Below, piece by piece: positions 10,177-64,000 of a DNA stretch of 64,000 bases. Source of the DNA: a virus. Taxonomy: Duplodnaviria > Caudoviricetes. The notes under the pieces were generated by a model. It ran no database searches and was not told the DNA's origin. It saw only the letters and a list, made by a program, of their open reading frames with translations. The stretch's first letter is position 1; the number at the start of each line of letters is the position of its first letter. Location: positions 12,409 through 76,408 of the IMG/VR virus record IMGVR_UViG_3300046678_000974, one strand, 5' to 3'. The translations under genes and the position numbers were made by a program.

Positions 10177-10207
10177 TAACACCAGCCCAATTATGGGACT
10201 GGTGTTA
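10177..10207. terminator. Hairpin between convergent genes
   Basis: taacaccag-ccca...tggg-a-ctggtgtta stem. Confidence 0.55.
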
Positions 10208-11783
10208 GGGCTACCCAATTCGTACCATCGAACTGATACCATAGATCAACTGCTGTGGTATTAGTGTTCAATGTACCGGCGCCAGCACCGCCATTGACAA
10301 TAGTCAATGTGCCAGCCAATCCAGCATTGCCTGAGCGGCGAATATGCACTGTACTGCCGGTACGTGGTAATTGTGTGCTGGCTGTGACACTTATGCGAGC
10401 GCCCAAAGTTAAAGTGAATGAGGTGATACTCGATGGCACAACGATGGTCGCATGTTCGTGTTGGCTCCAATGCGTGTAGGTTGCTGACACATTAAGCTTA
10501 GCGCGTTCACATACTGAATTGGCTGCACCATGCACGAATCGGTTGAACATCTCCGGCGTGGCATTACTTGCCATCGGCATATGATCGTCCAAGAATATAT
10601 GCCCTTGGATATTGCCACCCGGATTATCAAACGAAATGAACTTGTTGACCTCGAAGTTTGGCACATAGTCCGGTGATGCGGCACCAATCAATCCCAATAG
10701 ACCAAAGTTTGAGGTAATTTCACCGGTCGCTGCTAAACATGTGATGTTCAAATTGTTAATGATTACTGTTGATGAGCCGCCTTGATAATCGCCGTAGAGA
10801 TATGGCGTGCCGGTTAATGCTGCGGACAGAATGATCGGATCGACAATCTTAAAGCCGTTAATGGTAAAAGCTGATGCTGCTCCTGAAAAGAACGAAGCCT
10901 GTGAGCCAGTCAGTTTTATTTGTTCCATATGCAAAGCATTAATCGTAACGGCTCGGGCGCCAGCACCACCAAATAAAATTGCTACGTTACATGCACCATT
11001 AGCGAGTGTAAGTCCATCGAAGAATAACTCACCAACCGTACCTGGAAAGTTAATGAAGTTAGCAATGGCGGGATTACCAGAACTACCGCCTTGTATAACT
11101 AGATTTTGAAATTGGCTGGGCGGAATAGCGGCGGCTTCTTGAGGATTGAAGTTCAATCCAATATTCTGAAATCCAATAGCACTGATGTCATGGAATCTGT
11201 TGCCTGATATATTGGTCGCAGCAACATCGACAGCATTATATGCTGGATTGGTTGCCATTGGCATATGAATATCACCAACTATGCTATTCACCAAATAACC
11301 AATATTCAATGCCTTGGCAGAGGTGAATCCTGTCTGTGCTGCACCATACGAAAGATTTAACCCCTCGATCTTCACGCCACTGCTTGCTGTCGCACCGGTG
11401 GTATCACCAATAGTAAGAATGGGACAAGAGGGAGTCGTAGCGTAAAACTGTATAATCTGCGATCCATAGCGCGAGCCAATTAGGGTCAATCCATAATTAC
11501 CAACACCTTGTGCTGGAATACTCAGACCAGTTGAGGAATTGATCTCATAGACGCCCGGTTCAATAACAAAGAACTTACCATGAGATGCAGCATAGGTGAT
11601 GGCATTTTGTAAGGCTGTCGCATTAGTTTGTCGGACACCGGTTGTTTGACCTGCACCCATAACCAACCCAGAAGCTAGATGGGCAAACACCGAACCGCGA
11701 ATAATTGCTGGGGCGCCAAGTCCCGAAGCGTTGAGAACATCATCTTGGCCACCACCGGGAACTTGTTGATAGTTGAATGTCAT
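10191..11783 (-). CDS. Beta-helix (pectate lyase-like) tailspike/depolymerase
   Basis: NATALQNAITYAA...FVIEPGVYEI...LIGS pectate_lyase_3-like start; beta-helix periodicity; ends YQFDGTNW. Confidence 0.6.
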   Translation of the reverse strand: MTFNYQQVPGGGQDDVLNASGLGAPAIIRGSVFAHLASGLVMGAGQTTGVRQTNATALQNAITYAASHGKFFVIEPGVYEINSSTGLSIPAQGVGNYGLTLIGSRYGSQIIQFYATTPSCPILTIGDTTGATASSGVKIEGLNLSYGAAQTGFTSAKALNIGYLVNSIVGDIHMPMATNPAYNAVDVAATNISGNRFHDISAIGFQNIGLNFNPQEAAAIPPSQFQNLVIQGGSSGNPAIANFINFPGTVGELFFDGLTLANGACNVAILFGGAGARAVTINALHMEQIKLTGSQASFFSGAASAFTINGFKIVDPIILSAALTGTPYLYGDYQGGSSTVIINNLNITCLAATGEITSNFGLLGLIGAASPDYVPNFEVNKFISFDNPGGNIQGHIFLDDHMPMASNATPEMFNRFVHGAANSVCERAKLNVSATYTHWSQHEHATIVVPSSITSFTLTLGARISVTASTQLPRTGSTVHIRRSGNAGLAGTLTIVNGGAGAGTLNTNTTAVDLWYQFDGTNWVALTPVP

Positions 11784-11793
11784 ATATTTTCCC

Positions 11794-12924
11794 TTAGACC
11801 AAGTTGCTGGAAGCTACAGCCGTTAGACTTGGATTGAGTCCAGTGACAGAGGCGTTGATTGCAGTCGAACCGCTATGACCACGCCAACTATTGCCGAACA
11901 TAATGACTGATGTATTGGCTCCTCCACCAACGGCATTCACTGGAGTGGTACCGGTTGTCGCGCCAAACTTGGTTGAATTGCCAATCACTGCGGTATCCGT
12001 ATTGCCACTAAGGAAGAGATGATTGCCTGACATGGTTACTTGATCGGCAAAGTTGCGGATCGTATTACCGCAAATCACACCATTGCGATTGTTTGTCCAA
12101 CGAATATTGCTGGCTCCATTGGAGTCAATGATATTATTCGAGATTACATTATCTTCGGTCGAATCGGCCACCACACCATTGCCACCATTGAACTCGATCT
12201 TGTTGTGGGTAATGATGTTATCTTGAGCACCACTATCCAACTGGATACCATGCGAGCTATTACCGTTGATGAAGCAGTTCTGAATGCGACTGTCACCTAC
12301 GTTCCAAACTCCGAGGGTATTCGCAGCAAATACACAGCCTTCGATTACGGCAGTTGGAAATCCACCGGAGGCGAAAGTATTTCCCTCGATACCGGCATTG
12401 CATTGGGTGAAGACACAATCACGAAAATAGAACGGGATACCAAGTGCAAGTGTCACACCATGATGGGTGCTATCACCGATGATTGCCATGTCCACCATCG
12501 CGGTGCCACGGTTATCATTACCTGTACCTGATGTGGATGTTGCGACAGCACTACTTGATCCACTGGTCTTCTTCAATACTGAACCTAACAAAGTGGACAG
12601 AGTGCCAAATGGATAACTGTTGGTGGGTGTGGCGCCGCGTAGGGTGACACCGACTGGGATGGTAATGGTTGAGATGACACTGACACCAACTGGCGCGATT
12701 ACAATGTACTTCTGAGTACCAACTGCGGCATTGAAGGCATTCGTCCAAGCAGCCGTATCATCCGAGCTACCATTGGCTTGTACGCCAAAGTCAGCGGCCC
12801 AGATAACATCTCCGAAGTGCGATCGAAGACTGCGGGCGACCGCACCGGTGGCCGTTTGAACCACAGTGGCAGTCGAAAGATCGCCAGTGACCGGTTGGTT
12901 GTTGCTGTTATATAGATATGTCAT
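11794..12924 (-). CDS. Right-handed beta-helix tailspike-like protein
   Basis: IWAADFGVQANGSSDDTAAWTNAFNAA; repeated Asn-ladder NxIxxN motifs. Confidence 0.75.
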   Translation of the reverse strand: MTYLYNSNNQPVTGDLSTATVVQTATGAVARSLRSHFGDVIWAADFGVQANGSSDDTAAWTNAFNAAVGTQKYIVIAPVGVSVISTITIPVGVTLRGATPTNSYPFGTLSTLLGSVLKKTSGSSSAVATSTSGTGNDNRGTAMVDMAIIGDSTHHGVTLALGIPFYFRDCVFTQCNAGIEGNTFASGGFPTAVIEGCVFAANTLGVWNVGDSRIQNCFINGNSSHGIQLDSGAQDNIITHNKIEFNGGNGVVADSTEDNVISNNIIDSNGASNIRWTNNRNGVICGNTIRNFADQVTMSGNHLFLSGNTDTAVIGNSTKFGATTGTTPVNAVGGGANTSVIMFGNSWRGHSGSTAINASVTGLNPSLTAVASSNLV

Positions 12925-12939
12925 TTAGACCACATTTCA

Positions 12940-13452
12940 TCAGACTACGGACCAATTTGTACCGTTGTAAATTAGATCGACACTCGAAAAGGCAAGATTG
13001 AGTACGATACCAGTGGCGCCCAACACGTTATCAATATTCTGCGTGGCTTTCACGGTGATCGCATTTGTCGCTGCATCACCTTTGCCGTCTTTCACAGTGA
13101 TAATTCTTCCAGTCGTGGGGGCGGCTGGCAGGGTTACTTGAGTGGCAGCACCACTCGTCTTATTAATGACCACATAGCGATCAGTTGCAGCGACGGTATA
13201 GTTGCCAGCGGCGATGATCACAGCAATCTTACGGACTTCGGCAGACGAAGTGGTGATAACACCACCAACGCTCAGCGTATTTGATAGAGTGATCGGACCA
13301 GTCAGCGTTTGCGCCGTGCTTTGATGGATCGACACTGCATCATCAAAGGCGTTGTTCAGTCCGAGAGGAACAGCGCCGCCAGTATTGGCGCCGCATTGAG
13401 TGCCGTCCACAAAGACGACAGAACCATTATAGGAATTGCTAAAAACCGACAT
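12940..13452 (-). CDS. Short tail-fibre module protein, paralog 1 of 3
   Basis: True start MSVFSNSY at 13452 (GAGGA RBS); TDRYVVINK...GRIITVKDGKGDAATNAITV...YNGTNW. Confidence 0.75.
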   Translation of the reverse strand: MSVFSNSYNGSVVFVDGTQCGANTGGAVPLGLNNAFDDAVSIHQSTAQTLTGPITLSNTLSVGGVITTSSAEVRKIAVIIAAGNYTVAATDRYVVINKTSGAATQVTLPAAPTTGRIITVKDGKGDAATNAITVKATQNIDNVLGATGIVLNLAFSSVDLIYNGTNWSVV

Positions 13453-13481
13453 CTCATATCCTCGGAGTATGGGATATTTAG

Positions 13482-16400
13482 CTAGCCCACTGAGGCTGTC
13501 CAACTCATGGTCATGCTGGTACTTGTGGTCGAACCAATCAATGGTGTCCCCGGTATCGTAGGCAATCCAACCGTAGGTACGGGTTGTGGTGCTGCGCCAA
13601 CTGCATTTAAGACAACCACACTCATTGCTGGAATAGTGATCCCTGCGAGCAAAGCCGACGTAGATAAGGTGGTGGTAAAGCCAGTCGGGTGCGTCGAAGA
13701 CAACTCCCAATATGTCCAAGCTGATGTCGATGAACCATTCATCGCCACCGAAACTGGATAAGCTGTAGAGACATCGTAATTGATGATCTGACAGCAGGTA
13801 CTGTTGGCGTTCACAGTCCCCAAGGTTACGATGTTCATCCCAGAAGAGGTTGTTGAACTGATAACATTTCCGGGTGCCAATGCTCCCAGTTTTTGATATA
13901 CATATCCCGGTGGACGTAGGAAATATGGTCCTTGTCCAAACGTATTTGAATCTATCAGCCCATACCATTGATCATAGGCGATATCCCAACGATTAGCCCA
14001 TGCCAAGGTTCCTACTTTGCCGATAGTGGCATATCGAAATGCTGCATATACAGCCCCGGTCACATCAGCCTGATATGAACTGGCACCGGGCTGTCCGTCC
14101 ATGTTGAACTCGGTGAGGAATATTGGTGCTGTTGAAGATATCGCTGTATTGACATTCTGACGAACATCTAAGAAGATATCAGTGAGTTCATCTGAGAAGC
14201 ATTGTGCAACTGACTTGCTACCATTCTCCTCGGTATATCCATGTCCACTGATGAAGTCAGGATGACAGTTTTGAATGAATGTCGTTAATCTTTGATTATT
14301 GAAATACGAATCATCCAAGCCACCGCATTGATATGAGGGATCAACGGCTTTTATTCCAACCGCCATGGCGTTAAAAAGGCCGATACACGAATTGATATCG
14401 GTACCATCGGCTTCGTTAGCAAATGTCCAATAATAAACTGGCACACCACCATTCTTGAAATGTTGTGCTATTTGCTGACAACGATCTTGATGAACTGCCC
14501 AGTCAGATGGTGAAGTGATGTTCAACCATGAACACCATCCCACTGTGATGATTAAGTTGGCGGTCGTTAACGTGGTGCCAATGGTAAAGCACTTCTGCGC
14601 ATTGTTGATAAAATTATCAATCCAACTCCAATCTGCTGCTGATGTGCGAGTGGGAAAAATCTGTGTGATGTGGAAGTTCTGATTCCAGTTAAGACGAATG
14701 GAACCAATGTTCATCGACTTGCAGATGGTTTGAAATGCCGGATCGACCATCAATCCATAATCACCACGTGTGATGTTCATATCATTACAGGCAACACCAT
14801 AAAACTTTGGCGATATTGCCACACCGGTTAGTGATGTCAAATTGAAGGTGACGTTCGGTCCTGTCGGTGGTTGAACTGGCGGTCCCGGAACCAATCCCAA
14901 GGGGCTGACTGTTGTACCACTGGAGGGCTGCCACGCATCACTTGATACTGTTTTGAAGTACCATAGTACACCTTGCGGCAGATTTGCCGGACCAGTGATT
15001 GGTCCTGAGAATGTTTGGGTCGATAGATTCCAAGTGAACCAATTCTGAGAAGGACCATCTTGGGCAAAGATTATGTTTTGATAGAGATCGATTGCACTGG
15101 TATTGCCGCCACCATTGATAATGTTCCCATCCATTCGGAAGTTCTCTTGGACATCGATGGTATAGGTATGACCTCCAAATACAATGCTACCATTATTCGG
15201 TGTCGCATAGGTAGAAGTACTCAAAATGGTCGCAGATGATTGCCGCCAAACTTGTCCATTCACATAGGCAAGCGATATTACAGTGTTACCAGCCGAAGCA
15301 TCGACTGCGCCGTTTACACTAACACGCGAATTGGCCAATGTCCAACTGGACAAATCAGAACCAATAATTGACGTTAGTGGTGGCACCGTTGAACCATTGG
15401 GCGATGCTGAAACGAATGGATTGGCAACAGATGCCCAAGGATCAGATACCAGCGTCTTGACAAACCAATTCCCTAATGAGTTCTCGATATAAACACGGCT
15501 ATTCAGATACACAACTTCGACAGCCGAAACATCTGGTACCCCATTGATCACAACACGATTGTTGCTCAATGTCCAAATGGTTAGATCGGAACTAATGATC
15601 TGAGTTGCCGGAGGAATGATAGTTTCATCGGCTGATGGTGTTAATGAAGGCGGTCCCGGTGGCCCACCCGGAGGTGGTACTGGTACTTGGCTGATGCTAT
15701 AGATTTGTGACAGATAGGCGGATTGTTCAGGATATAATGATCCACCACCCCATGCTGTAACTACGCCGAAGTCAGGTGATGAACCACGATGCGGTCCCCA
15801 ATAACACCATGCCCATGAGATTGGCTGTTGTCCAGTGAGGAACCGAGGGCCACCACTAGCTTGGCCATTGACGTACTGCACGAATGTATTGCCCCAATTG
15901 GTAGCATCAGTGGTCAACATAGCATCGCCGCAGGCCATAACCATTACCGGTGCGATGTTATTAGATACCATGAAGCCCCACATCGTATTGGCGCGATTGA
16001 TATAAACGGTACCAGCATCAATACCGGTACCAATCGGCGCAACCTCATTAGGGAATGACTGGACGCCATAGACAACTTTATTGGAGACAGTGAGGTTCAC
16101 CGGCGTGGTCGAGGCCAATCGCAAGTCGCCTTCAAAGGAACCGGTCGCCACATTGAGGGGTGCTTCGCAGATGATCAATGGGTTACTGTCGATTGCTTGG
16201 ATGGCATTGCCCACACTGACGTACATGGCGTGCAGATCGGTTGGGGTGTTATCACCCCATGTCGCACCGAGATTGACGCCTTGGGCAGATATGGGTGCCC
16301 AGCGTAGATCATAACCTAAGATTGCTGTGTTATTAGCATAGCGATTGGCTATCCGTGTCCAATGCTGCGCAAATATACTCGATGTGATTGTACCTGTGGT

Positions 16401-18344
16401 TCCCGATCCATCGGTACCATCGGTGCCGTTTCCGGTGGAGAACCACAATCCATTGGCTTGGCCTTGTGCATCAGGGAGTACGATACCTTCACTGCTATGA
16501 GAATCGAGAATAACCCGCATGCCAATAAAGCCAGCATAAGCAATAATTGCATCGAGCACTTCCATATAGGCTAAGCCCACAAGATCAGGATTGATCGTTG
16601 TGTTGATGCCGGTGATCATATCGTTGTTCATAACGCCAGCGTCATTGAGCAAGATACGAATAGCGTTGAAACCAAGACGCGCCATATCCTCCATCGTCAC
16701 TTGGTAGCTGACGATATCAAGACCACGCAGGAAACCATTGCGTAGGTGCATACCATCCCAAGTGATCGCGTTGATGCGGATTGATTGGTTATTGATGTCG
16801 AGTATCTGACTACCCGAGACATGCATGGGGCCATTTGTAAGTGCGTGAATTGGTGCCGGTTGTGGTGTCGGTTGCGGCCCCACTGGTGGCCCAGGGGGAG
16901 GACCAGGGGGTGGCCCTCCTGGTGGTGTCACTGGCGGAGTTGGTTGGGGTGGCCCTCCTGGTGGTGTCACTGGCGGAGTTGCTTGCGGTACATTGGCGAC
17001 CGGTATAGGTGTCGGGATATTACCCGCAGCAGTGATGCCTGTCGTCGTCAACCACAATTTTCGACCGGTTGATTTCCAATCGTTGTAGAGTTTCCGTAAC
17101 CAGCCATTATCGCCCCAGAGTGGCAAGCCATAAGGACTTTCCGGATCGATTGCTGTTTCCCAATAGGATTGTATGTTGGACGAATTGGCACTTTGGCCGA
17201 AAGGCGCACTAATCTCGATGCCGATCGCGTCCCATATCTGGGTCGCACCCGAACCCCAATCCATTGCGGTATTGCTACCCTTTGGGCCGACCGTAGCTGG
17301 GGTAGCTTGGTACAGCACAGAACCACTGAATATCGATTTACAGGCTGCGTAAAGTGCTCGCCATTGTGGCATGTAATCAACCGGACTATCGCCGTCGCCT
17401 TTATAGGGAAATATACCGGGGGCAATTGAAAGAGCGATGCAGCCATTTCGTGTTGCGCATGTCGCTAATTGAATAGCAAGAGACTGTAAGTTGGTGAGAA
17501 ACACCACAGGATCAGATGGTTGGATCAGATACTTTGCTTGTAGATCAGTCGAGTTCAACACTAATGCAAGGATAACCTGAAGACCATTGGCTTGATAAGT
17601 AGCGCAGACTTGGTCGATCGACCCTCCAAGGATAACCGGATCATTGTTGGCATCCTTCCAGTGTACGTCAGTGGCATGTACATTCGGCATAAAGGCCAGC
17701 ACAGGCACATAGACTGCCGAAACATTCAAGGTGTTTTTGATTGCCGCACTGTTGGCTGGTTCACCACTACCCGGATATAAGTCCTGTACGGCAGCGACAA
17801 TGTTCATGTTCGCAACAGGCGGTACTGGATTGGGTGATGGCCCCGGCGGCGGTGTCGGTCCCGGTGTTGGTGTGGGGCCGGGCGGCGTGGGCGTTGGTGT
17901 GGGGCCGGGCGGTCCCGGTGGTGGTGCAGGTAGCGGGACGAAAGGAAGTGGATTCAATCGATCATTGATATGTTGGATCGCCTCAATAAACTTTTGAGCC
18001 GGTCCCGGATAGCCTAGCACATTGGACATGCGCAGCAGGTATTGTTCTGCCCAATACGACATCCACGCATCGTTGAGGGGTACGGTTAGATTGCCGACGG
18101 TATCAGCGGAAACAATCGATGCTTCGTTGATTTGTTTGGTTTGAAACAAGATCGCTTCATTGGCAGCGATGAAAATCTCTTCCAATCCCGGTGTACTGGG
18201 ATCGGCATTTGATTCAATTTGATTAAGGGCGCGTTGAAGATCGGCCGCCGATTGGGGATTGGTCGTTGCATCGGCTGGGATTTGCAACTGTGAAATCTGT
18301 TGCAACAACTGTGCAAGCTGCGGGGAAATGTCCGTCATGGACAT
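13482..18344 (-). CDS. Giant multidomain glycosidase-like fibre: GH113-like (catalytic Glu absent) + GH5-like (catalytic Glu absent) + repeat modules + GH39-like + terminal FN3 A-B fragment
   Basis: 1620 aa with Pro-rich linkers. GH5_1 pattern (ILDINNQSIRI...GFNAIRI...GMRVILDSH...GYDLRWAP...NIAPVMVMACG). C-terminal barrel keeps FANEAD and IFLTEFN. Confidence 0.8.
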   Translation of the reverse strand: MSMTDISPQLAQLLQQISQLQIPADATTNPQSAADLQRALNQIESNADPSTPGLEEIFIAANEAILFQTKQINEASIVSADTVGNLTVPLNDAWMSYWAEQYLLRMSNVLGYPGPAQKFIEAIQHINDRLNPLPFVPLPAPPPGPPGPTPTPTPPGPTPTPGPTPPPGPSPNPVPPVANMNIVAAVQDLYPGSGEPANSAAIKNTLNVSAVYVPVLAFMPNVHATDVHWKDANNDPVILGGSIDQVCATYQANGLQVILALVLNSTDLQAKYLIQPSDPVVFLTNLQSLAIQLATCATRNGCIALSIAPGIFPYKGDGDSPVDYMPQWRALYAACKSIFSGSVLYQATPATVGPKGSNTAMDWGSGATQIWDAIGIEISAPFGQSANSSNIQSYWETAIDPESPYGLPLWGDNGWLRKLYNDWKSTGRKLWLTTTGITAAGNIPTPIPVANVPQATPPVTPPGGPPQPTPPVTPPGGPPPGPPPGPPVGPQPTPQPAPIHALTNGPMHVSGSQILDINNQSIRINAITWDGMHLRNGFLRGLDIVSYQVTMEDMARLGFNAIRILLNDAGVMNNDMITGINTTINPDLVGLAYMEVLDAIIAYAGFIGMRVILDSHSSEGIVLPDAQGQANGLWFSTGNGTDGTDGSGTTGTITSSIFAQHWTRIANRYANNTAILGYDLRWAPISAQGVNLGATWGDNTPTDLHAMYVSVGNAIQAIDSNPLIICEAPLNVATGSFEGDLRLASTTPVNLTVSNKVVYGVQSFPNEVAPIGTGIDAGTVYINRANTMWGFMVSNNIAPVMVMACGDAMLTTDATNWGNTFVQYVNGQASGGPRFLTGQQPISWAWCYWGPHRGSSPDFGVVTAWGGGSLYPEQSAYLSQIYSISQVPVPPPGGPPGPPSLTPSADETIIPPATQIISSDLTIWTLSNNRVVINGVPDVSAVEVVYLNSRVYIENSLGNWFVKTLVSDPWASVANPFVSASPNGSTVPPLTSIIGSDLSSWTLANSRVSVNGAVDASAGNTVISLAYVNGQVWRQSSATILSTSTYATPNNGSIVFGGHTYTIDVQENFRMDGNIINGGGNTSAIDLYQNIIFAQDGPSQNWFTWNLSTQTFSGPITGPANLPQGVLWYFKTVSSDAWQPSSGTTVSPLGLVPGPPVQPPTGPNVTFNLTSLTGVAISPKFYGVACNDMNITRGDYGLMVDPAFQTICKSMNIGSIRLNWNQNFHITQIFPTRTSAADWSWIDNFINNAQKCFTIGTTLTTANLIITVGWCSWLNITSPSDWAVHQDRCQQIAQHFKNGGVPVYYWTFANEADGTDINSCIGLFNAMAVGIKAVDPSYQCGGLDDSYFNNQRLTTFIQNCHPDFISGHGYTEENGSKSVAQCFSDELTDIFLDVRQNVNTAISSTAPIFLTEFNMDGQPGASSYQADVTGAVYAAFRYATIGKVGTLAWANRWDIAYDQWYGLIDSNTFGQGPYFLRPPGYVYQKLGALAPGNVISSTTSSGMNIVTLGTVNANSTCCQIINYDVSTAYPVSVAMNGSSTSAWTYWELSSTHPTGFTTTLSTSALLAGITIPAMSVVVLNAVGAAPQPVPTVGLPTIPGTPLIGSTTSTSMTMSWTASVG

Positions 18345-27953: not shown

Positions 27954-30422
27954 TTGATGACCTTTCTGACACAGACTGATGTCGTTGAGCGCCTGTACAA
28001 TCTATTACCACGTGGCTGGTACCCCGACCTCCAAGATGCGCCCAATCTTCAAGCCGTCTTGTCGATGTTGGCCGCGACGTATAGCAATGACTTTGATGGT
28101 CTCTATCAACTTCTGCTCTACGTCCAGCAACAAGCACGGGTGTTCACCGCTACCGACTTCTGGCTCGATCTAGCAGCACAGGATTATTTCGGCAGTCGTC
28201 TACAGCGTCATGTGTCAGAATCAGATACCAGTTATCGTCGCAGAATCATCCTCAATCTCCTAGCACCACGTGGTACTCGGCCTGCTTTGGTTGCTAATGT
28301 AACTAACCTTACAGGTGTTACACCGAGAGTCATTGAACTTCGTAATCCGGGTGATTGCGGTTCCTATTCAAGCCTTGGCAATCCTGTCTGGGGTGGCGCT
28401 GCATATAATCAACAGGGTGCTTATGGCACGCTCACTATGCCGTTCCAACTGTTGATCAGTGTACAACGTCCACAAGGCGAAGGTATTCCGCTGATCAATG
28501 GCTATAGTATGCCGGGCAGTGGCTATGCCACCTATCCTAAGCCATTCGGTTTTACTGGTGGCAATCTACCCCCAGCAAATACTTGGGGTATCTCATCTTA
28601 TGAACAACTGATCGATATCATCGGCCAAGTTACCGATACCGATATCTATCAAATGGTATCGGATACCATGCCTGCTGGAACCATCGCTTGGACGGCGATT
28701 CATTCCGAGTTCGTTGAGTCACCACCCATCGGTGGTGGTGCTATGCTGGATGTTAATTTTTATCTGAATATGTCGGTGTTGTCAGCCAGTCGAGGCGTGC
28801 AAGGTGCACAAGCATTGGCGAATATGGCGTTTCCGATCCTGTTTCATGCCACCATGGTCGAGCAAGCCCACCTGCTCGGGCATTTTACGATGTCGCCTTT
28901 CCGTTTCTCGGCTGGTATGTCCTTGGTGTCGCCTTTGATGGTAACGATCAATATGATCATGCCGATCATCGTTTTCAAAGCAGCGATGCAATTCGAAGCG
29001 CTCTCTGCCAAGTTCACTATACCAGCTATCAGTATGACGCCAACCGTAATCTTTACTGGCCAAACACAGCCACTATTGCCTGCCAATTTGCCCTTCACCC
29101 TCGGCACGATCGTCGGTGCGCAGCCATTAATTGGTATCAACTTCATACTTGGCCAGTCTGCTCCAGGTGAAGCCGGAGGCATGCCGGCTATTGCAGTCAA
29201 TTCTGTCTGTCATGTGGGCGATTTTGCCGCTTCAGTGCCGCCTTCTCTTGCATCGGTCACTGCTGGTACAGTCGCCGGTCTCACAGAAGTTACCGGTGTC
29301 GGTCTGTCCAGCAGTTTCAATATCCCAGCAGTCAGCGGCACGACGATCGCCGCTCCGCTCGCACCACAACCGCAGCCAGTGCTGCCGGAAACACTGCCGT
29401 TCCTATTGGGTGGTGGCGTGCAGACCCAGCCACAAGTCACGTTGGCACTGCCGGATGTACAGAGCACAACCATTCTGGGCAGTCTTGCCGTGCCACCGAG
29501 ATTGGCTGCTGTCACAAGCCAAGCAACCCTTGGCACGCTTGGCGTCTCGACCAGCGCGTTCCAAACTTTCAATCCAACAAGGAAGACCAGCAATATCAGT
29601 CTTTCTCCCGATCTGCTTACCGCAACCAAGACGATTGGCACCAGTGCCGATCCGATCTTTGGGACCAAAACGGCTACGTCTGGATTGTACTATTGGGAAG
29701 TCACAGTCAGCATTACCAATGCCAGTCAGATCACCGCTGGTATCGCCAATATTACAGCACCATTCGCATCAGGTGATTTCATCGGCTTCGATGTCAACAG
29801 TATCGGTTGGGCAGCAAATGGCAATGTGTTGGAAAATAACATATCACAAGCATCATGGCCAACATGGACGTCAACCGGTGCACCAATCCAGCCTCAGACA
29901 TTGACTACCAGCGCACCCGGCGGCACACAGATGTCGCTGGCTTGGGGCGCCGCTGTCGATGTAATCACCATGTGCTTTGCCTTCGATGCCTATGATGGCT
30001 TGCTATATGGTCGTATAGGCGCCGGGCCTTGGAATGGTGGTGGCGCAACCACCTCCGCCGGACTAGTGACACTCGGTGTGACACCGCTTGGACAAGGCAC
30101 CTCTAGTGGATCGACTGCGATGACAATTCTTGGCCAGACGCCGCTTGGTAGCTCGATCGCAGGACAGTCCAGTGGTGCTGTTATCCCGCCGCCATCTGGG
30201 CCACCCAATGCGCCTCAAACACAAGTCGGTACCATCCTGTCCGGTTCGGTCGTGATCACATGGCAGTCTACACAAACCGGTTTGCTAATCCCATCCACTG
30301 TGTTCGACGGTGGGGCAATCGGTCCAGCGGTAACCCTGTTCTCGTCGGGCGATAAGGCAGTCATGGCAGTTGATAGTGCGCACTGGCAGTATCAGCCACC
30401 TGACGGATACACAGCATGGTAA
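27954..30422 (+). CDS. Baseplate wedge gpI-like protein fused to a linker and C-terminal SPRY/B30.2-like domain
   Basis: WLDLAAQDYFG...ESDTSYRRRI...RGTR at the N-terminus; GLYYWEVTV...FAFDA...YQPPDGYTAW SPRY-like C-terminus. Confidence 0.75.
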   Translation: MMTFLTQTDVVERLYNLLPRGWYPDLQDAPNLQAVLSMLAATYSNDFDGLYQLLLYVQQQARVFTATDFWLDLAAQDYFGSRLQRHVSESDTSYRRRIILNLLAPRGTRPALVANVTNLTGVTPRVIELRNPGDCGSYSSLGNPVWGGAAYNQQGAYGTLTMPFQLLISVQRPQGEGIPLINGYSMPGSGYATYPKPFGFTGGNLPPANTWGISSYEQLIDIIGQVTDTDIYQMVSDTMPAGTIAWTAIHSEFVESPPIGGGAMLDVNFYLNMSVLSASRGVQGAQALANMAFPILFHATMVEQAHLLGHFTMSPFRFSAGMSLVSPLMVTINMIMPIIVFKAAMQFEALSAKFTIPAISMTPTVIFTGQTQPLLPANLPFTLGTIVGAQPLIGINFILGQSAPGEAGGMPAIAVNSVCHVGDFAASVPPSLASVTAGTVAGLTEVTGVGLSSSFNIPAVSGTTIAAPLAPQPQPVLPETLPFLLGGGVQTQPQVTLALPDVQSTTILGSLAVPPRLAAVTSQATLGTLGVSTSAFQTFNPTRKTSNISLSPDLLTATKTIGTSADPIFGTKTATSGLYYWEVTVSITNASQITAGIANITAPFASGDFIGFDVNSIGWAANGNVLENNISQASWPTWTSTGAPIQPQTLTTSAPGGTQMSLAWGAAVDVITMCFAFDAYDGLLYGRIGAGPWNGGGATTSAGLVTLGVTPLGQGTSSGSTAMTILGQTPLGSSIAGQSSGAVIPPPSGPPNAPQTQVGTILSGSVVITWQSTQTGLLIPSTVFDGGAIGPAVTLFSSGDKAVMAVDSAHWQYQPPDGYTAW

Positions 30423-60408: not shown

Positions 60409-60921
60409 GTGATGGGTGTTGTTGCCAATTCTGCATATCAAGAGGGATTAGCCCTCAAGGCCAATTCGGCGGATGTGATTGCCAGTTCCAATCCGATTGG
60501 GTTGAATGATCTGGTCGCTGATGCATTTTCGTTATCTGGTGTGCCTGTTGGTGGCAGTGGTTCGCCCGCCAGTCAGACGGTGGCTGGTCCTGTAGTGTTT
60601 TCTGGTGCGGTGACCTTCAGCGCTGGTCTATTGGGTCATGTGGTGGTTCTGAGCGTAGCTGGGCCGTATACGGTGGCAGCGACGGATCGTTATGTGTTGG
60701 TCAACTTTGCTGGTGCGATGATCGTCAACTTGCCGGCGGCGCCGGTGATTGGTCGTTTGGTGACTGTGAAGGACATATCTGGTTTAGCAGCAACCAATGT
60801 GATCACCGTGAAGGGGACGCAGAACATTGATGGTATTACTGGATCGACCGGTGTGGTGGTCAATACGGCGTATGGATCGGTTGATGTGGTGTATAATGGA
60901 ACCACCTGGAGCATCTTGTAA
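60409..60921 (+). CDS. Short tail-fibre module protein, paralog 3 of 3
   Basis: TDRYVLV...GRLVTVKDISGLAATNVITVKGTQNIDG...YNGTTW. Confidence 0.75.
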   Translation: MMGVVANSAYQEGLALKANSADVIASSNPIGLNDLVADAFSLSGVPVGGSGSPASQTVAGPVVFSGAVTFSAGLLGHVVVLSVAGPYTVAATDRYVLVNFAGAMIVNLPAAPVIGRLVTVKDISGLAATNVITVKGTQNIDGITGSTGVVVNTAYGSVDVVYNGTTWSIL

Positions 60922-61019
60922 TGGCAAAACGACCAAAACCTCGACCGGTTCCGGCAAAACCGACCATTACATCGGTCAAGCCAACGAGTAATGAATCGGT
61001 TTCATTGATCTGGAGATGA
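60921..61019 (+). CDS. 32-aa mini-ORF encoding FN3 strands A-B
   Basis: TAATG-coupled; MAKRPKPRPVPAKPTITSVKPTSNESVSLIWR; stop AGA-TGA-C lies 1 nt before the next ATG. Confidence 0.5.
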   Translation: MAKRPKPRPVPAKPTITSVKPTSNESVSLIWR

Positions 61020-61020
61020 C

Positions 61021-63267
61021 ATGCCGTTAACCTATCAACCTGCATTTCGTGTACATGGCACGACGACATGGATCAATTTTGGTCAACCGGTGACGAGCAC
61101 GAGTGTATTGATCACTGGATTGTCGCCATCAACGCAGTATGATTTTCAGATTACTTCGATCAATGCGTTTGGTTCGACGCCGAGTACACCGATTTCCGCG
61201 ACCACACCGGCGGTTACGACGATCAACAGTATTGGTCTAGCGCCGCAGACATTTTCTGCTGGTTCAGCGATTGGTACCACGGTTGGTACTGTGACGGTTA
61301 CCATGTCATCGGGCAATTTTACTGGTGCATTGACAGTGACTGGTACCGATGCTGGATCATTTACCAGTCCTATTGTTGGCAATCTGTTGAAGTTGGCAGT
61401 TGGTAATACGACTGTGAAGACCTATAGCATCAACATTGTTGCCACACAAAGTGGGGTGACCACATTTACCCAGCCCTTCAGCATTACTGCTACATCAGCA
61501 GTTACTGAGGCATCGGAAGGTGCGTTGATTACGACTATTGGTCCGGTGATGAATGCTTCACTTACCAAATACGTGGCTCAGTCTTCACCCCCATGGAATG
61601 TGTTTGCGCTGATTAATACTGGTACCGGTCGTGATCCGCAGATCAGTTTGGACACGGGGAGTGGTCCCCAGGTATTGCCACAGAGTGGTTTGGTTGCCAA
61701 ACTGGCATATCACAATCACGTTGAATGGCAGTTCAATGGCACGAATTGGTATTGGTGGGATACGGCGTCGAGTGCCACACCGGACAAGTTCACATTGTGG
61801 ACGATTAACAGTGTCAATTTGTCAGGTAATGGCACTTATACGCCTAATTTGGCGGCGAATCAGCCAGTTAGTACTGTCTCTGTTGTGCAGTCTGATGGTC
61901 AGACATTTCAGGGGACCTATTCGGTTGTCTCGACACCGAGTGGTGCCTTCAAGATGGTTGGTGCGGTATTGACGTCGAATGTGGTTTTGAGTGCATCAAG
62001 TTATAGTGTGACTGTGACAGCGACGCCGAATGTAGTTGTTGAAGGTGCATTATCGACTACAGTCAATTTGACGAATGGTACTGTTTCTAATGTCCAAGTA
62101 CCTCTCGGCATCCATCTTGGGAATGGATTGTTCTCATCTGCTGCACCTTATGGCAGCACGAATCTGCATTGGAATGGTGTGATTAGCGCTATGGGGCGTA
62201 CTCCGGCAGTTTTAGGAGCTACGGGGGCTAATACGTTTGGTGGTTTTGCTGGTGGATCACCCCCGCCTAATTGGGGAGCAGGTGATTTAGGTAGTTGGCA
62301 AGGTGCGAGTATTCCGACCAATGGTAGTGTGACTCCTCTGCTTACTTGGTCGTTTACTGATGGAACGACTGATCAGGCATTTTCTGCTTATGCGGCAATA
62401 GGCACGGCGAGTGAACCATCATATGGTGGGCAGAAACTATCTTTCTGGATTCAGAATAGTCTCACGCAATGGAAAAATGCTGGTTTCACCAAAGTTTATA
62501 TCCGCGTGAACTGGGAGTTTCAATCTAGTACATCTACTGGTGGTCCTATTGGAGGATTTGGGGTTGGTAGCACAGGAAACTTGCCAATTTGGCGCAATGC
62601 TTGGCGGGGTTTCTGTAATGCAGCCCATGGTGTCTCTGGACTTACTGTAAAGATGGTTTGGTGTCCAGCAACGGCGAATGATACTGGTGATCCAGCCGTT
62701 CCTCCTTTTGGAGCGATATTGAATTATTTTCCTGCTGTGAATAGTGGGTCTGGTTTTACTGGTGCAGCCGCTGATGGCTTTGCTCCGGCTGCTGTTGGTG
62801 GTAAGTTTGTTGATGTTATAGGACCTGATTTGTATGCCTTTGGTGGCGGTGGATTATCGTATCCGGATGAAGTTGATCCCACGAGTTTGACGACTACGAC
62901 TGCATGGTTTTTTGATTCTTGTGTGAAGATTGCCCAATCACAGGGATTGACTTTTGGCATATCTGAGTTTGGGGATTTTTCAGGCCAAACTGAGGCTACT
63001 GCTAGGGCTTGGGACCCGACCTATAGTCAAGGAGGGCGCACTGGTGGTTGGACTCCCAATCATTTTTTCAACTATATGAACAATCTTAAAAATCTCAGTC
63101 CTGCGGTGCCTATTGAGTTCATATGCATCTATGACGTCAATGTCGCCCCATTACTAATTCCATTCAGCAACATGTCACAGACCAACAGTGATTTGATGGG
63201 TTATCGGAAAATCCTTGGCCTAGGAGGCACTGCTCCGACTCCGATAATGACAATTGCTGTGCCATAA
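61021..63267 (+). CDS. Fibre protein: FN3 C-G fragment + cadherin/Ig-like domains + GH26-like glycosidase
   Basis: MPLTYQPAFRVHG...YDFQITSIN; KVYIRVNWEF, VDVIGPDLY and FGISEFG GH26-like motifs with both Glu present. Confidence 0.75.
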   Translation: MPLTYQPAFRVHGTTTWINFGQPVTSTSVLITGLSPSTQYDFQITSINAFGSTPSTPISATTPAVTTINSIGLAPQTFSAGSAIGTTVGTVTVTMSSGNFTGALTVTGTDAGSFTSPIVGNLLKLAVGNTTVKTYSINIVATQSGVTTFTQPFSITATSAVTEASEGALITTIGPVMNASLTKYVAQSSPPWNVFALINTGTGRDPQISLDTGSGPQVLPQSGLVAKLAYHNHVEWQFNGTNWYWWDTASSATPDKFTLWTINSVNLSGNGTYTPNLAANQPVSTVSVVQSDGQTFQGTYSVVSTPSGAFKMVGAVLTSNVVLSASSYSVTVTATPNVVVEGALSTTVNLTNGTVSNVQVPLGIHLGNGLFSSAAPYGSTNLHWNGVISAMGRTPAVLGATGANTFGGFAGGSPPPNWGAGDLGSWQGASIPTNGSVTPLLTWSFTDGTTDQAFSAYAAIGTASEPSYGGQKLSFWIQNSLTQWKNAGFTKVYIRVNWEFQSSTSTGGPIGGFGVGSTGNLPIWRNAWRGFCNAAHGVSGLTVKMVWCPATANDTGDPAVPPFGAILNYFPAVNSGSGFTGAAADGFAPAAVGGKFVDVIGPDLYAFGGGGLSYPDEVDPTSLTTTTAWFFDSCVKIAQSQGLTFGISEFGDFSGQTEATARAWDPTYSQGGRTGGWTPNHFFNYMNNLKNLSPAVPIEFICIYDVNVAPLLIPFSNMSQTNSDLMGYRKILGLGGTAPTPIMTIAVP

Positions 63268-63275
63268 ATATCGTT

Positions 63276-64000
63276 ATGACCATTTCCTACAATGTTTTGT
63301 ATCGTGTGCATGGCACCACTACTTGGACAACGTTTGGTAATACCGCTTTAACAACGGTTACAGTTACTGGTCTTAATCCAAATACTTCGTATGATTTTGA
63401 AGTACAAGCGGTCAATGAGGTTGGTACGGCTACCTCCAACATTGTGCAGGGCAGTACCTTGGGTGGTGTGACGTTCACTAGCATCACGCTATCGTCTCAG
63501 ACATTCACTGCTGGATCGAATGTTGGCACGCCGGTTGGCACAATCTCTGTTGGGCTATCATCAGGTACTTTCAATGGTGCATTCCAACCGATCACTGGGC
63601 CGGATGCAGCGTTCTTCCAAATTGTCTCTGGGGTGTTACAATTAGCGGTCAATAATACAACGGCTCGCTCGTATAACATTTCTATTACGGTCAATCAGAG
63701 CGGTGTGACCAATACGCCTTTCACACAAGCATTCCCGAATATTGTCGCCAGTGTGGGTTCGCTTGAAGCTAGCGAAGGTGCTCTGATTCAGACTATTGGT
63801 CCTACGATGAATGCTTCGCGTACCAAATACGTGGCTCAGTCAACTGGGCCGTGGAATGTGTTTGCGCTGATTAATACTGGTACCGGTCGTGATCCGCAGA
63901 TCAGTTTGGACACGGGGAGTGGTCCCCAGGTATTGCCACAGAGTGGTTTGGTTGCCAAACTGGCATATCACAATCACGTTGAATGGCAGTTCAATGGCAC
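63276..64000 (+). CDS. Paralogous fibre protein (FN3 C-G fragment + Ig-like domain), 3'-truncated
   Basis: Open to the window end: MTISYNVLYRVHGTTTWTTFG...YDFEVQAVNEVG...; absent from the ORF track because it has no stop. Confidence 0.8.
   Translation, partial: MTISYNVLYRVHGTTTWTTFGNTALTTVTVTGLNPNTSYDFEVQAVNEVGTATSNIVQGSTLGGVTFTSITLSSQTFTAGSNVGTPVGTISVGLSSGTFNGAFQPITGPDAAFFQIVSGVLQLAVNNTTARSYNISITVNQSGVTNTPFTQAFPNIVASVGSLEASEGALIQTIGPTMNASRTKYVAQSTGPWNVFALINTGTGRDPQISLDTGSGPQVLPQSGLVAKLAYHNHVEWQFNG
63852..64000 (+). repeat. At least 149-bp perfect direct repeat of 61594-61742
   Basis: Identical sequence tggaatgtgtttgcg...ttcaatggcac. Confidence 0.95.

What the first reader, a model, noticed from the sequence alone, without database searches (positions are those of the whole stretch)
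13482..13562. 1620-aa glycosidase fibre ends abruptly after FN3 strands A-B
Seen: the C-terminus is PTIPGTPLIGSTTSTSMTMSWTASVG-stop, and read-through of the TAG does not continue FN3. Joining it to the N-terminus of the 748-aa protein 47 kb away gives SWTASVG-MPLTYQPAF, paralleling intact SWQPPTAGTQPLSYRLQY. Inference: either a tip tag that chains a second enzyme in trans, or the scar of an inversion that split one ~2400-aa ancestral gene.
Basis: partly seen in the sequence, partly recalled or inferred. Interest (0 to 1): 0.7.

Follow-up and report, generated by a model that had tools for sequence, protein, structure and literature searches.

The report
Half-domain docking tag on phage fibre
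A giant sugar-cutting tail protein of an uncultured 76-kb soil phage ends in the first two strands of a small fibronectin-type (FN3) domain. Two other enzymes of the same phage begin with only the remaining five strands, so the tail is most likely a plug that hangs a second enzyme on the fibre, not the scar of a broken gene; binding is untested.

Summary
The 1620-aa protein (13482..18344, minus strand) ends ...PTIPGTPLIGSTTSTSMTMSWTASVG-TAG. This 41-residue tail matches only the starts of FN3 domains among all PDB sequences (best E 0.006). No frame downstream continues the domain.

The inversion idea is refuted:
- A syntenic ortholog in another phage (L003) and two further homologs end right after the glycosidase domain, with no tail.
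- L003 has the same downstream genes, stop codon and intergenic box.
Two other phages share this layout.
- There are no inverted repeats at the two sites and no recombinase gene.

The "tip tag" idea is supported but unproven:
- Six enzymes from at least four phage contigs start at exactly FN3 strand C.
- This genome has two such acceptors (748 and 712 aa) and two sequence-supported orphan A-B pieces (the mini-ORF and this tail).
- The tail is a lineage-specific, in-frame gain that stops in the same loop as the mini-ORFs.
- Lactococcal phage Tuc2009 is a solved precedent: a BppU hairpin completes a BppA sandwich.

This scan had already flagged the split-FN3 system on this same genome (e1-5909372, e1-5909373).

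The parts
13482..18344 (-). 1620-aa multi-domain fibre or glycosidase protein (P0001). It has a helical N-terminus, Pro/Thr linkers, a GH5-like barrel and a C-terminal clan GH-A barrel with beta-sandwich, followed by the tail.
   Evidence: Pfam Cellulase 546-806; GH39 1311-1434. AF2 model of residues 1151-1620: pLDDT 89.4. Foldseek: GH51, GH79 and GH39 structures.
13485..13607 (-). 41-residue C-terminal tail (residues 1580-1620): NAVGAAPQPVPTVGLPTIPGTPLIGSTTSTSMTMSWTASVG. It consists of a Pro-rich linker plus FN3 strands A-B, ending 5 residues after the strand-B Trp.
   Evidence: Absent from orthologs P0159, P0019 and P0020. 138 homologs of the enzyme domain mostly stop aligning at query position ~430 of 470. 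All PDB phmmer hits are FN3 starts. AF2 pLDDT falls to 37-50 after the last sandwich strand.
13482..13562 (-).
13453..13481 (-). 29-nt spacer with a TAAATA box (13475-13480) and a GAGGA ribosome-binding site ahead of P0008. It is homologous to the spacer after the tail-less ortholog in L003.
   Evidence: TAG CTAAATA here, TAG CTCTAAATA in L003.
12940..13452 (-). P0008, a 170-aa tail-fibre-anchor-like protein and paralog of P0006. The same gene follows the ortholog in L003.
   Evidence: (phrog_972, tail fiber proximal subunit, positions 110-188).
11794..12924 (-). P0018, a 376-aa right-handed beta-helix tailspike-like protein. It is syntenic in L003.
60409..60921 (+). P0006, a 170-aa anchor-like protein. 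Its TAA stop overlaps the mini-ORF start (TAATG).
   Evidence: The L002 homolog is 70% identical and has the same TAATG junction.
60921..61019 (+). 32-aa mini-ORF MAKRPKPRPVPAKPTITSVKPTSNESVSLIWR-stop, carrying FN3 strands A-B. Its stop is followed by 1 nt and then the ATG of the 748 gene.
   Evidence: The frameshift-fused reading aligns to Pfam fn3 positions 7-83 of 84. Counterparts exist in L002 (40 aa...VVLTWTASK-stop) and G001 (26 aa).
61021..63267 (+). 748-aa acceptor enzyme (P0002). FN3 strands C-G occupy residues 1-62, followed by cadherin-like domains and a C-terminal enzyme domain.
   Evidence: AF2 gives pLDDT 86-93 for residues 1-62.
63276..64000 (+). Second acceptor enzyme (P0009, 712 aa; it continues across the circular junction of the contig). 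It starts MTISYNVLYRVHGTTTW, with no A-B piece upstream; a TAAATA box lies 5 nt before the ATG.
29880..30266 (+). Two A-B-like inserts in the C-terminal domain of the 822-aa protein that follows the Baseplate_J gene (P0158).
   Evidence: sequence; the G001 ortholog has insert 1 but lacks insert 2. Searches show no FN3 signal by profile, Pfam or PDB search.

Best explanation
The last 41 residues of the 1620-aa protein are a Pro-rich linker plus a two-strand (A-B) FN3 hairpin that cannot fold into a domain alone. I propose it is a docking tag. It would insert into the five-strand (C-G) half-FN3 at the N-terminus of one of the phage's two glycosidases (the 712-aa or the 748-aa protein), completing the beta-sandwich in trans and hanging a further enzyme on the distal end of the fibre.

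Shown:
- The tail is FN3 A-B.
- The tail is a lineage-specific in-frame addition.
- Half-FN3 acceptors and separately encoded A-B pieces are conserved in several related phages.

Inferred:
- That tail and acceptor bind each other.
- Which acceptor is the partner.
- What the co-translated mini-peptide does. It may be the permanent partner of the 748 protein, or a temporary cap.
For: 1. The tail matches only the starts of FN3 domains in the whole PDB (E 0.0057; FN3con residues 12-36), while the acceptors match FN3con 44-100. The two pieces are complementary.
2. Three homologs lack the tail, and the syntenic one keeps the same stop, spacer and downstream genes. The tail is therefore an in-frame gain of about 37 codons placed just before the native stop.
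3. The tail stops 5 residues after the strand-B Trp (WTASVG-stop). The independent mini-ORFs stop in the same loop (WTASK-stop in L002, WR-stop here), and all acceptors begin just after that loop.
4. Six acceptor genes from at least four phage contigs start with Met at the identical alignment column. Two of them (the 712 gene and the L001 gene) have no A-B piece upstream, so they must be completed in trans or stay incomplete.
5. The mini-ORF/acceptor junction frames differ (+1, +1, -1), so these are separate coupled ORFs, not one recoded gene.
6. This genome has two acceptors and two sequence-supported orphan donors. Its relative G001, a 52%-complete record, shows one acceptor and no tail in what is held.
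7. AF2 models the enzyme domain confidently and leaves the tail unstructured and free. It also models the half-FN3 confidently, and no further strands are predicted within residues 1-62.
8. Solved precedent: Tuc2009 BppU carries a 25-residue C-terminal beta-hairpin, absent from TP901-1, that completes a sheet of BppA domain 2 into a titin-like domain (PMC4742702).
Against: - No binding evidence of any kind exists. No multimer prediction was possible with these tools.
- No relative carrying a tail was found, so selection on the tail cannot be measured.
- The correlation between an extra acceptor and an extra donor rests on one genome against one half-complete genome.
- The low pLDDT of the tail is expected anyway, because the alignment has no sequences covering it.
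- The mini-ORF already supplies A-B for the 748 protein, so the tail is not strictly needed for it.
- The mini-peptide's own role is unexplained.
Confidence: 0.55

Rival explanations
1. The tail is a neutral remnant. A piece of an FN3-coding sequence was captured at the 3' end of the gene by illegitimate recombination and is translated without any function.
For: The tail is unique to this genome among all homologs found. Phage fibre genes are mosaic. There is no paralogous DNA source and no sign of selection that I could measure.
Against: The insert is read in the FN3 frame. It has a proper Pro-rich linker. It ends in the same B-C loop as the conserved mini-ORFs, and it leaves the native stop, spacer and downstream gene intact. 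By rough reckoning, frame (1 in 3) times loop position (about 1 in 10) makes this an unlikely accident. It also occurs in a phage lineage that demonstrably uses split FN3 pieces.
Confidence: 0.25
2. The tail is a functional flexible extension whose partner is something else: another virion protein, a host glycan, or an assembly factor. The 712 and 748 proteins attach elsewhere, for example to the baseplate.
For: Insert 1 there is conserved in G001. The mini-ORF can serve the 748 protein.
Against: Those inserts gave no FN3 signal in my profile, Pfam or PDB searches, whereas the tail did. The only incomplete FN3 domains found in the genome are those of the 712 and 748 proteins.
Confidence: 0.13
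3. The two pieces come from one ancestral ~2400-aa gene that an inversion between 13482 and 61021 split, or that an active DNA inversion switch still rejoins.
For: The two pieces are on opposite strands, so an inversion would join them in frame-compatible order.
Against: A syntenic tail-less ortholog has the same downstream genes. The 748 gene has its own upstream A-B mini-ORF, conserved in L002 and G001. No inverted repeats exceed chance (8-9 nt). No recombinase is present. No fused homolog was found.
Confidence: 0.02
4. An assembly error or chimeric join at 13482 cut off the rest of the domain.
For: The record is a metagenome assembly whose 127-nt terminal overlap lies inside a repeat shared by the 748 and 712 genes.
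Against: The sequence immediately after the tail (TAG, TAAATA box, P0008, P0018) is collinear with an independent assembly, L003. The repeat problem is 50 kb away.
Confidence: 0.03

Closest known systems
Lactococcus phage Tuc2009 baseplate tripod: the BppU C-terminal beta-hairpin completing BppA domain 2 (PMC4742702)
   Same: A short C-terminal extension on one virion protein is absent from the close relative that lacks the accessory protein (TP901-1). It supplies two strands that complete an Ig-like sandwich of a separately encoded carbohydrate-binding accessory protein. Here, likewise, the tail is absent from orthologs and the candidate partners start with an incomplete sandwich.
   Different: No sequence relationship is known or was tested. 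Here the domain is a canonical FN3 split at the B-C loop. The incomplete half is at the partner's N-terminus (in BppA it is the C-terminal domain). Free mini-ORFs also encode the hairpin. The carrier is a 1620-aa glycosidase rather than a baseplate protein. The complex here is only inferred.
Donor-strand complementation and exchange in chaperone-usher pili (own knowledge)
   Same: An Ig-like fold lacking strands is completed by strands from another polypeptide. A temporary donor (the chaperone) can be replaced by the final one, which is a possible role for the mini-peptide.
   Different: In pili one strand (G) is missing, not two N-terminal strands. The machinery, setting and sequences are unrelated. 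Exchange here is pure speculation.
Engineered split domains: FN3 fragment complementation (Koide laboratory, 2005) and SpyTag/SpyCatcher (own knowledge; papers not read here)
   Same: These show that two pieces of a small beta-sandwich can reassemble with high affinity. The tag/catcher logic is the same.
   Different: Those are man-made. SpyTag forms a covalent isopeptide bond, for which there is no sign here.
Invertible tail-fibre segments (Mu G segment with Gin, P1 C segment with Cin; own knowledge)
   Same: A constant fibre part is combined with alternative distal parts.
   Different: Those need a serine invertase and inverted crossover sites next to the fibre gene. Both were tested here and are absent.
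Ig-like domains appended to phage structural proteins by programmed frameshift (Fraser et al. 2006; own knowledge)
   Same: Small Ig or FN3 domains sit at the ends of phage structural proteins, at gene junctions that involve a frame change.
   Different: No slippery site is present, and the frame relation is not conserved among the three mini-ORF/acceptor junctions (+1, +1, -1). The 1620 tail has nothing to shift into.

Membership tests
Fibronectin type III domain (Pfam PF00041) | Sequence match to the family profile or to solved FN3 domains | tested here: met
   Tail: all 11 PDB phmmer hits are FN3 N-termini, best E 0.0057, although Pfam gives no hit for so short a piece. Acceptors: fn3 at 26-31 bits, above the cut-off of 25.
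Fibronectin type III domain (Pfam PF00041) | A complete seven-strand domain (~85-90 residues) in one polypeptide | tested here: not met
   The tail covers only FN3con residues 12-36. The acceptors cover only fn3 positions ~31-83 or FN3con 44-100. No frame continues the tail.
Tuc2009 BppU/BppA-type hairpin docking | A terminal hairpin extension that is absent from orthologs | tested here: met
   P0159, P0019 and P0020 end 2-4 residues after the last sandwich strand; this protein runs 41 residues past it.
Tuc2009 BppU/BppA-type hairpin docking | A partner protein with a beta-sandwich that lacks those strands | tested here: met
   The 748 and 712 proteins start at strand C. The AF2 model of residues 1-62 has strands C-G only.
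Tuc2009 BppU/BppA-type hairpin docking | A physical complex in which the hairpin completes the partner's sheet | not testable with these tools
This needs a binding assay or a structure.
Tuc2009 BppU/BppA-type hairpin docking | Sequence homology to BppU or BppA | not tested
   No BppU or BppA chain appeared among the PDB sequence hits of the tail or the acceptor. No direct comparison was made.
Site-specific invertible fibre segment (Gin/Cin/Hin type) | A recombinase gene in the genome | tested here: not met
   PF00239 and PF00589 give no match in six frames of the complete 76-kb record; the controls were positive.
Site-specific invertible fibre segment (Gin/Cin/Hin type) | Inverted repeats at the two junctions | tested here: not met
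   The longest shared words between 13380-13620 and 60880-61100 are 8-9 nt, against 8.35 nt expected by chance. No such pair appears in the window-wide repeat list.
Programmed ribosomal frameshift fusion | A conserved slippery site and a conserved frame relation at the junction | tested here: not met
   The junctions are TGA-C-ATG (+1), TAA-A-TTG (+1) and an ATGA overlap (-1), with different P-site codons.

The most novel reading that the evidence does not exclude
The phage uses a natural, modular tag/catcher system built from one FN3 domain split at the B-C loop. Each glycosidase is made with an open five-strand socket. A co-translated 26-40-residue mini-peptide caps the socket, and it is later displaced by hairpins fixed on virion proteins, such as the tail of the 1620-aa fibre and perhaps baseplate loops. 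This would be a donor-strand-exchange-like assembly step that lets enzymes be swapped or added by gaining a 40-residue tag.
Probability: 0.15. Interest if true: 0.8.

Novelty: new variant of a known kind. Interest (0 to 1): 0.55.

Why it matters
If the tail really plugs into the half-FN3 of another enzyme, it shows how a phage can add a depolymerase to its fibre by gaining about 40 residues, without fusing genes. That would be a simple rule for how branched, multi-enzyme host-recognition devices evolve.

It would also help annotation. Very short ORFs and odd "truncated" FN3 ends in phage fibre modules would count as functional docking pieces rather than errors.

A natural, non-covalent split-FN3 pair could also be a useful protein-assembly tool. 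The Tuc2009 structure shows the principle exists. Here it appears in a canonical FN3 domain with several donors and acceptors in one genome.

Tried and rejected
- **No close relatives in the main collections.** Megablast and tblastn of the locus and of P0002 against GenBank phages gave no close relative; only distant cellulase-domain hits appeared. IMG/VR scans with P0002, A1 and P0006 found nothing. The GTDB genome scan found nothing.
- The contigs of P0010, P0019 and P0020 could therefore not be read, and I cannot prove that P0019 and P0020 end at a true stop. L003 does.
- **An idea dropped.** I first thought the 29 nt after the TAG might be a remnant of an acceptor gene start (17 of 31 matches to L002). 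I dropped this when L003 showed the same spacer after a tail-less ortholog.
- **Spurious ORF.** The 342-aa ORF at 12940..13968 overlapping the tail is spurious upstream of Met-172. It has no homology and an odd composition, and other long overlapping ORFs occur in this genome.
- **No intragenomic source.** No DNA source for the tail was found within the genome. The best protein-level look-alike is the start of the second FN3 of P0005 (37.5% over 40 aa, E 0.05).
- **Baseplate inserts.** I therefore did not count them as donors.
- **Literature.** A search for split FN3 or strand complementation in phage fibres found nothing direct.
- **Not attempted.** I did not try to fold the frameshift-fused mini-ORF plus 748 reading (P0160).
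Full report
**Setting.** The window is bases 12409-76408 of a 76,408-bp IMG/VR virus record. The record has a 127-nt terminal overlap, which marks a circular assembly, and CheckV rates it 100% complete. Joined across that overlap, the last gene of the window becomes a 712-aa paralog of the 748-aa protein. The genome carries many large glycosidase-bearing tail proteins.

**Observation.**
- The minus-strand ORF 13482..18344 encodes 1620 residues and ends ...AMSVVVLNAVGAAPQPVPTVGLPTIPGTPLIGSTTSTSMTMSWTASVG, then TAG.
- Reading through the TAG gives LNIPYSEDMRCRF.... The other frames give a stop after two codons, or the next gene, P0008 (start 13452, preceded by GAGGA). Nothing downstream continues an FN3 domain.
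- The tail is truly FN3-like, and this does not rest on impression. phmmer of the last 42 residues against all distinct PDB sequences returns 11 hits, all FN3 domains and all at the domain's first two strands. Examples are RPTP-sigma 287-315, [29 protein letters not shown] (E 0.0057); FN3con residues 12-36 of 100; and titin residues 3-27 of 109.
- Pfam cannot score so short a piece. A leave-one-out profile of A-B halves ranks the tail first among non-seed hits in all six frames of the genome, but only at 7.5 bits.
- The 748-aa protein starts MPLTYQPAFRVHGTTTW. It matches Pfam fn3 from position 47 (FN3_DSCAM model from position 26) and FN3con residues 44-100.

Directly upstream of the 748 gene lies a 32-codon ORF (60921..61019), MAKRPKPRPVPAKPTITSVKPTSNESVSLIWR-TGA.
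- Its ATG overlaps the TAA of the preceding 170-aa gene P0006 (TAATG).
- Its stop is followed by one base and then the ATG of the 748 gene, with GGAG five bases upstream.
- Read with a +1 step at the stop, mini-ORF plus 748 aligns to Pfam fn3 positions 7-83 of 84.
- The 748 protein's missing strands are therefore next door, not 47 kb away.

**Relatives.** The phage is isolated in sequence space, but four informative relatives were found.
1. **L002, a soil metagenome contig.** A P0006 homolog (70% identical) is followed by TAATG and a 40-aa mini-ORF ...PPTKPTVIIRKVETKDVVLTWTASK-TAA. One base later comes TTG and MPILYQPMYRVHGTTTW. The fused reading covers fn3 positions 2-81 of 84.
2. **G001, the IMG/VR record behind L003 and L007.** A beta-helix gene is followed by TAATG and the mini-ORF MAKTKRKPTPPVVTVVSEITTTVALT-TGA, which overlaps (ATGA) the start of MSLTYQPRYRVTGSPTW.
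3. **L001.** A gene that begins MAITYQCMYRVHGTTTW overlaps the end of a GH16-like gene, with no A-B piece.
4. **P0010.** It begins MPVSYTPQYRVHGTTTW and carries a GH16-like C-terminus.

Together with the 748 and 712 proteins, that makes six genes from at least four phage contigs that start with Met at the same alignment column, just before strand C. The three mini-ORF/acceptor junctions differ in frame relation (+1, +1, -1) and share no slippery sequence. They are coupled separate ORFs rather than one recoded gene. That the short ORFs stay open despite heavy divergence argues that they are translated.

**The tail is a lineage-specific gain.**
- An exhaustive profile search with residues 1151-1620 found 138 homologs of the enzyme domain. 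Nearly all alignments end at query position ~430, and many proteins end there. The few that run on continue into unrelated linkers.
- The closest homolog, P0020 (70% identity), ends ...IPAMSVVVLSIP. P0019 (2198 aa; same N- and C-terminal modules) ends ...IPAMSIIVITY.
- Most telling is the syntenic ortholog in L003 (P0159, 1400 aa; 64% identical over the last 600 residues). It ends ...IPAMSIVVLTATS, then TAG TAG CTCTAAATA.... A P0008-like gene and a P0018-like beta-helix gene follow, the same order as in the window.
- The window reads ...VVVLNAVG[...]WTASVG TAG CTAAATA.... About 37 codons have therefore been added in frame just before the native stop, leaving the spacer and the next gene untouched.
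- AlphaFold2 with 46 homologs models the clan GH-A barrel and sandwich at pLDDT above 90 up to the strand SVVVL. The tail is left without structure (pLDDT 67, then 50, then 37). The fold resembles GH51, GH79 and GH39 enzymes.

**Inversion hypothesis.** It is contradicted on every count.
- Conserved synteny at 13482 (above).
- A conserved P0006, mini-ORF, acceptor arrangement at 61021 (L002).
- No inverted repeat beyond the 8-9 nt expected by chance.
- No serine or tyrosine recombinase anywhere in the genome.
- No fused GH39-FN3-GH26 protein, either among proteins of 891-2835 residues related to the C-terminal enzyme or among proteins longer than 1310 residues related to the acceptor module. 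The nearest long proteins are ordinary FN3-cadherin arrays with complete FN3 domains.

**Tag hypothesis.** The genome contains exactly two incomplete C-G halves, in the 748 and 712 proteins, and two sequence-supported orphan A-B halves, the mini-ORF and the tail.
- The 712 gene has no A-B piece upstream; eight bases separate it from the 748 stop.
- The tail ends in the same B-C loop as the mini-ORFs: WTASVG-stop here, WTASK-stop in L002.
- AF2 models residues 1-62 of the 748 protein confidently as strands C-G, followed by a complete seven-strand cadherin-like domain. No extra strands are predicted within those first 62 residues. I could not inspect the coordinates, so packing of the next domain against the open face is not excluded. 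Foldseek matches FN3 and cadherin arrays.
- G001 has a tail-less ortholog and, in the 52% of its genome that is held, one acceptor.
- A solved precedent exists. In Tuc2009 the BppU protein has a 25-residue C-terminal beta-hairpin, lacking in TP901-1, that "completes one of the beta-sheets" of BppA domain 2, and the composite resembles a titin domain (PMC4742702).
- The neutral-scar alternative requires several coincidences: the captured piece is in the FN3 frame, it is cut in the one loop where this phage family splits its FN3, and it was inserted without disturbing the native stop. I rate that as unlikely but not excluded.

**Limits.**
- Binding is untested.
- No second genome with a tail was found, so there is no measure of selection.
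I saw the sequences and found insert 1 conserved and insert 2 absent in G001. My profile, Pfam and PDB searches gave no FN3 signal for them, so their status, and the true donor-to-acceptor count, stay open.
- The role of the mini-peptide is unknown. It could be a permanent partner of the 748 protein or a temporary cap.

**Verdict.** The inversion reading is refuted. The trans-docking reading is the best-supported one (about 0.55), as a new variant of the hairpin-completes-a-sandwich docking known from Tuc2009. The same scan had already flagged the split-FN3 system on this genome (e1-5909372).
- the tail is the most canonical of the A-B pieces;
- the tail is a recent in-frame gain, absent from a syntenic ortholog;
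- the 748 protein is not an orphan of the 1620-aa gene.

Noticed in passing
window 61516-61742 and 63774-64000; contig ends: The 748 and 712 genes share a 227-nt stretch at 93% identity with a long identical core. The record's 127-nt 'direct terminal repeat' lies inside this repeat: it occurs three times, at genome offsets (0-based) 0, 74023 and 76281. The circular join still gives an intact 712-aa ORF, but the repeat could allow deletion or copy-number change of the 748 gene.
   Followed up: partly
L003 11642-13632 (G001): In the relative G001 the acceptor is split again. A 335-aa ORF (half-FN3, cadherin-like and lectin-like parts) ends 14 nt before a separate 322-aa ORF that carries the enzyme-like domain.
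   Followed up: no
L001 1-2608: There are two acceptor-type genes in tandem; the first has a GH16-like C-terminus whose last codons overlap the next gene's ATG. Beyond about residue 400 the second ORF's translation looks like non-coding or opposite-strand sequence, so the contig may be chimeric or the ORF over-extended.
   Followed up: no
window 60409-60921 and 12940-13452: P0006 and P0008 are 50% identical paralogs on opposite strands, 47 kb apart. Both resemble positions 110-188 of the T4-type long-tail-fibre proximal subunit family (phrog_972). They look like stand-alone anchor modules that precede separately encoded enzymes.
   Followed up: partly
window 13475-13480 (-), 63265-63270 (+); L003 9932-9937: A TAAATA box sits right after the 1620 stop, 5 nt before the ATG of the 712 gene, and after the ortholog's stop in L003.
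   Followed up: no
window 29880-30266: The 822-aa protein after the Baseplate_J gene has a 52-residue insert (...PPNAPQTQVGTILSGSVVITWQST...) that its G001 ortholog lacks. A first A-B-like insert is shared by both. No FN3 signal was found by profile, Pfam or PDB search.
   Followed up: partly
window 10191-11783 (-): A 530-aa protein follows P0018, in the position where G001 has its mini-ORF and acceptor. From its sequence it looks like another tailspike-type protein (impression only; Pfam and PHROGs gave no significant hit), so the acceptor block has moved between lineages.
   Followed up: no
window 12940-13968 (-): A 342-aa ORF overlaps the last 160 codons of the 1620 gene in another frame. 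Only its last 170 codons (P0008) look real.
   Followed up: yes
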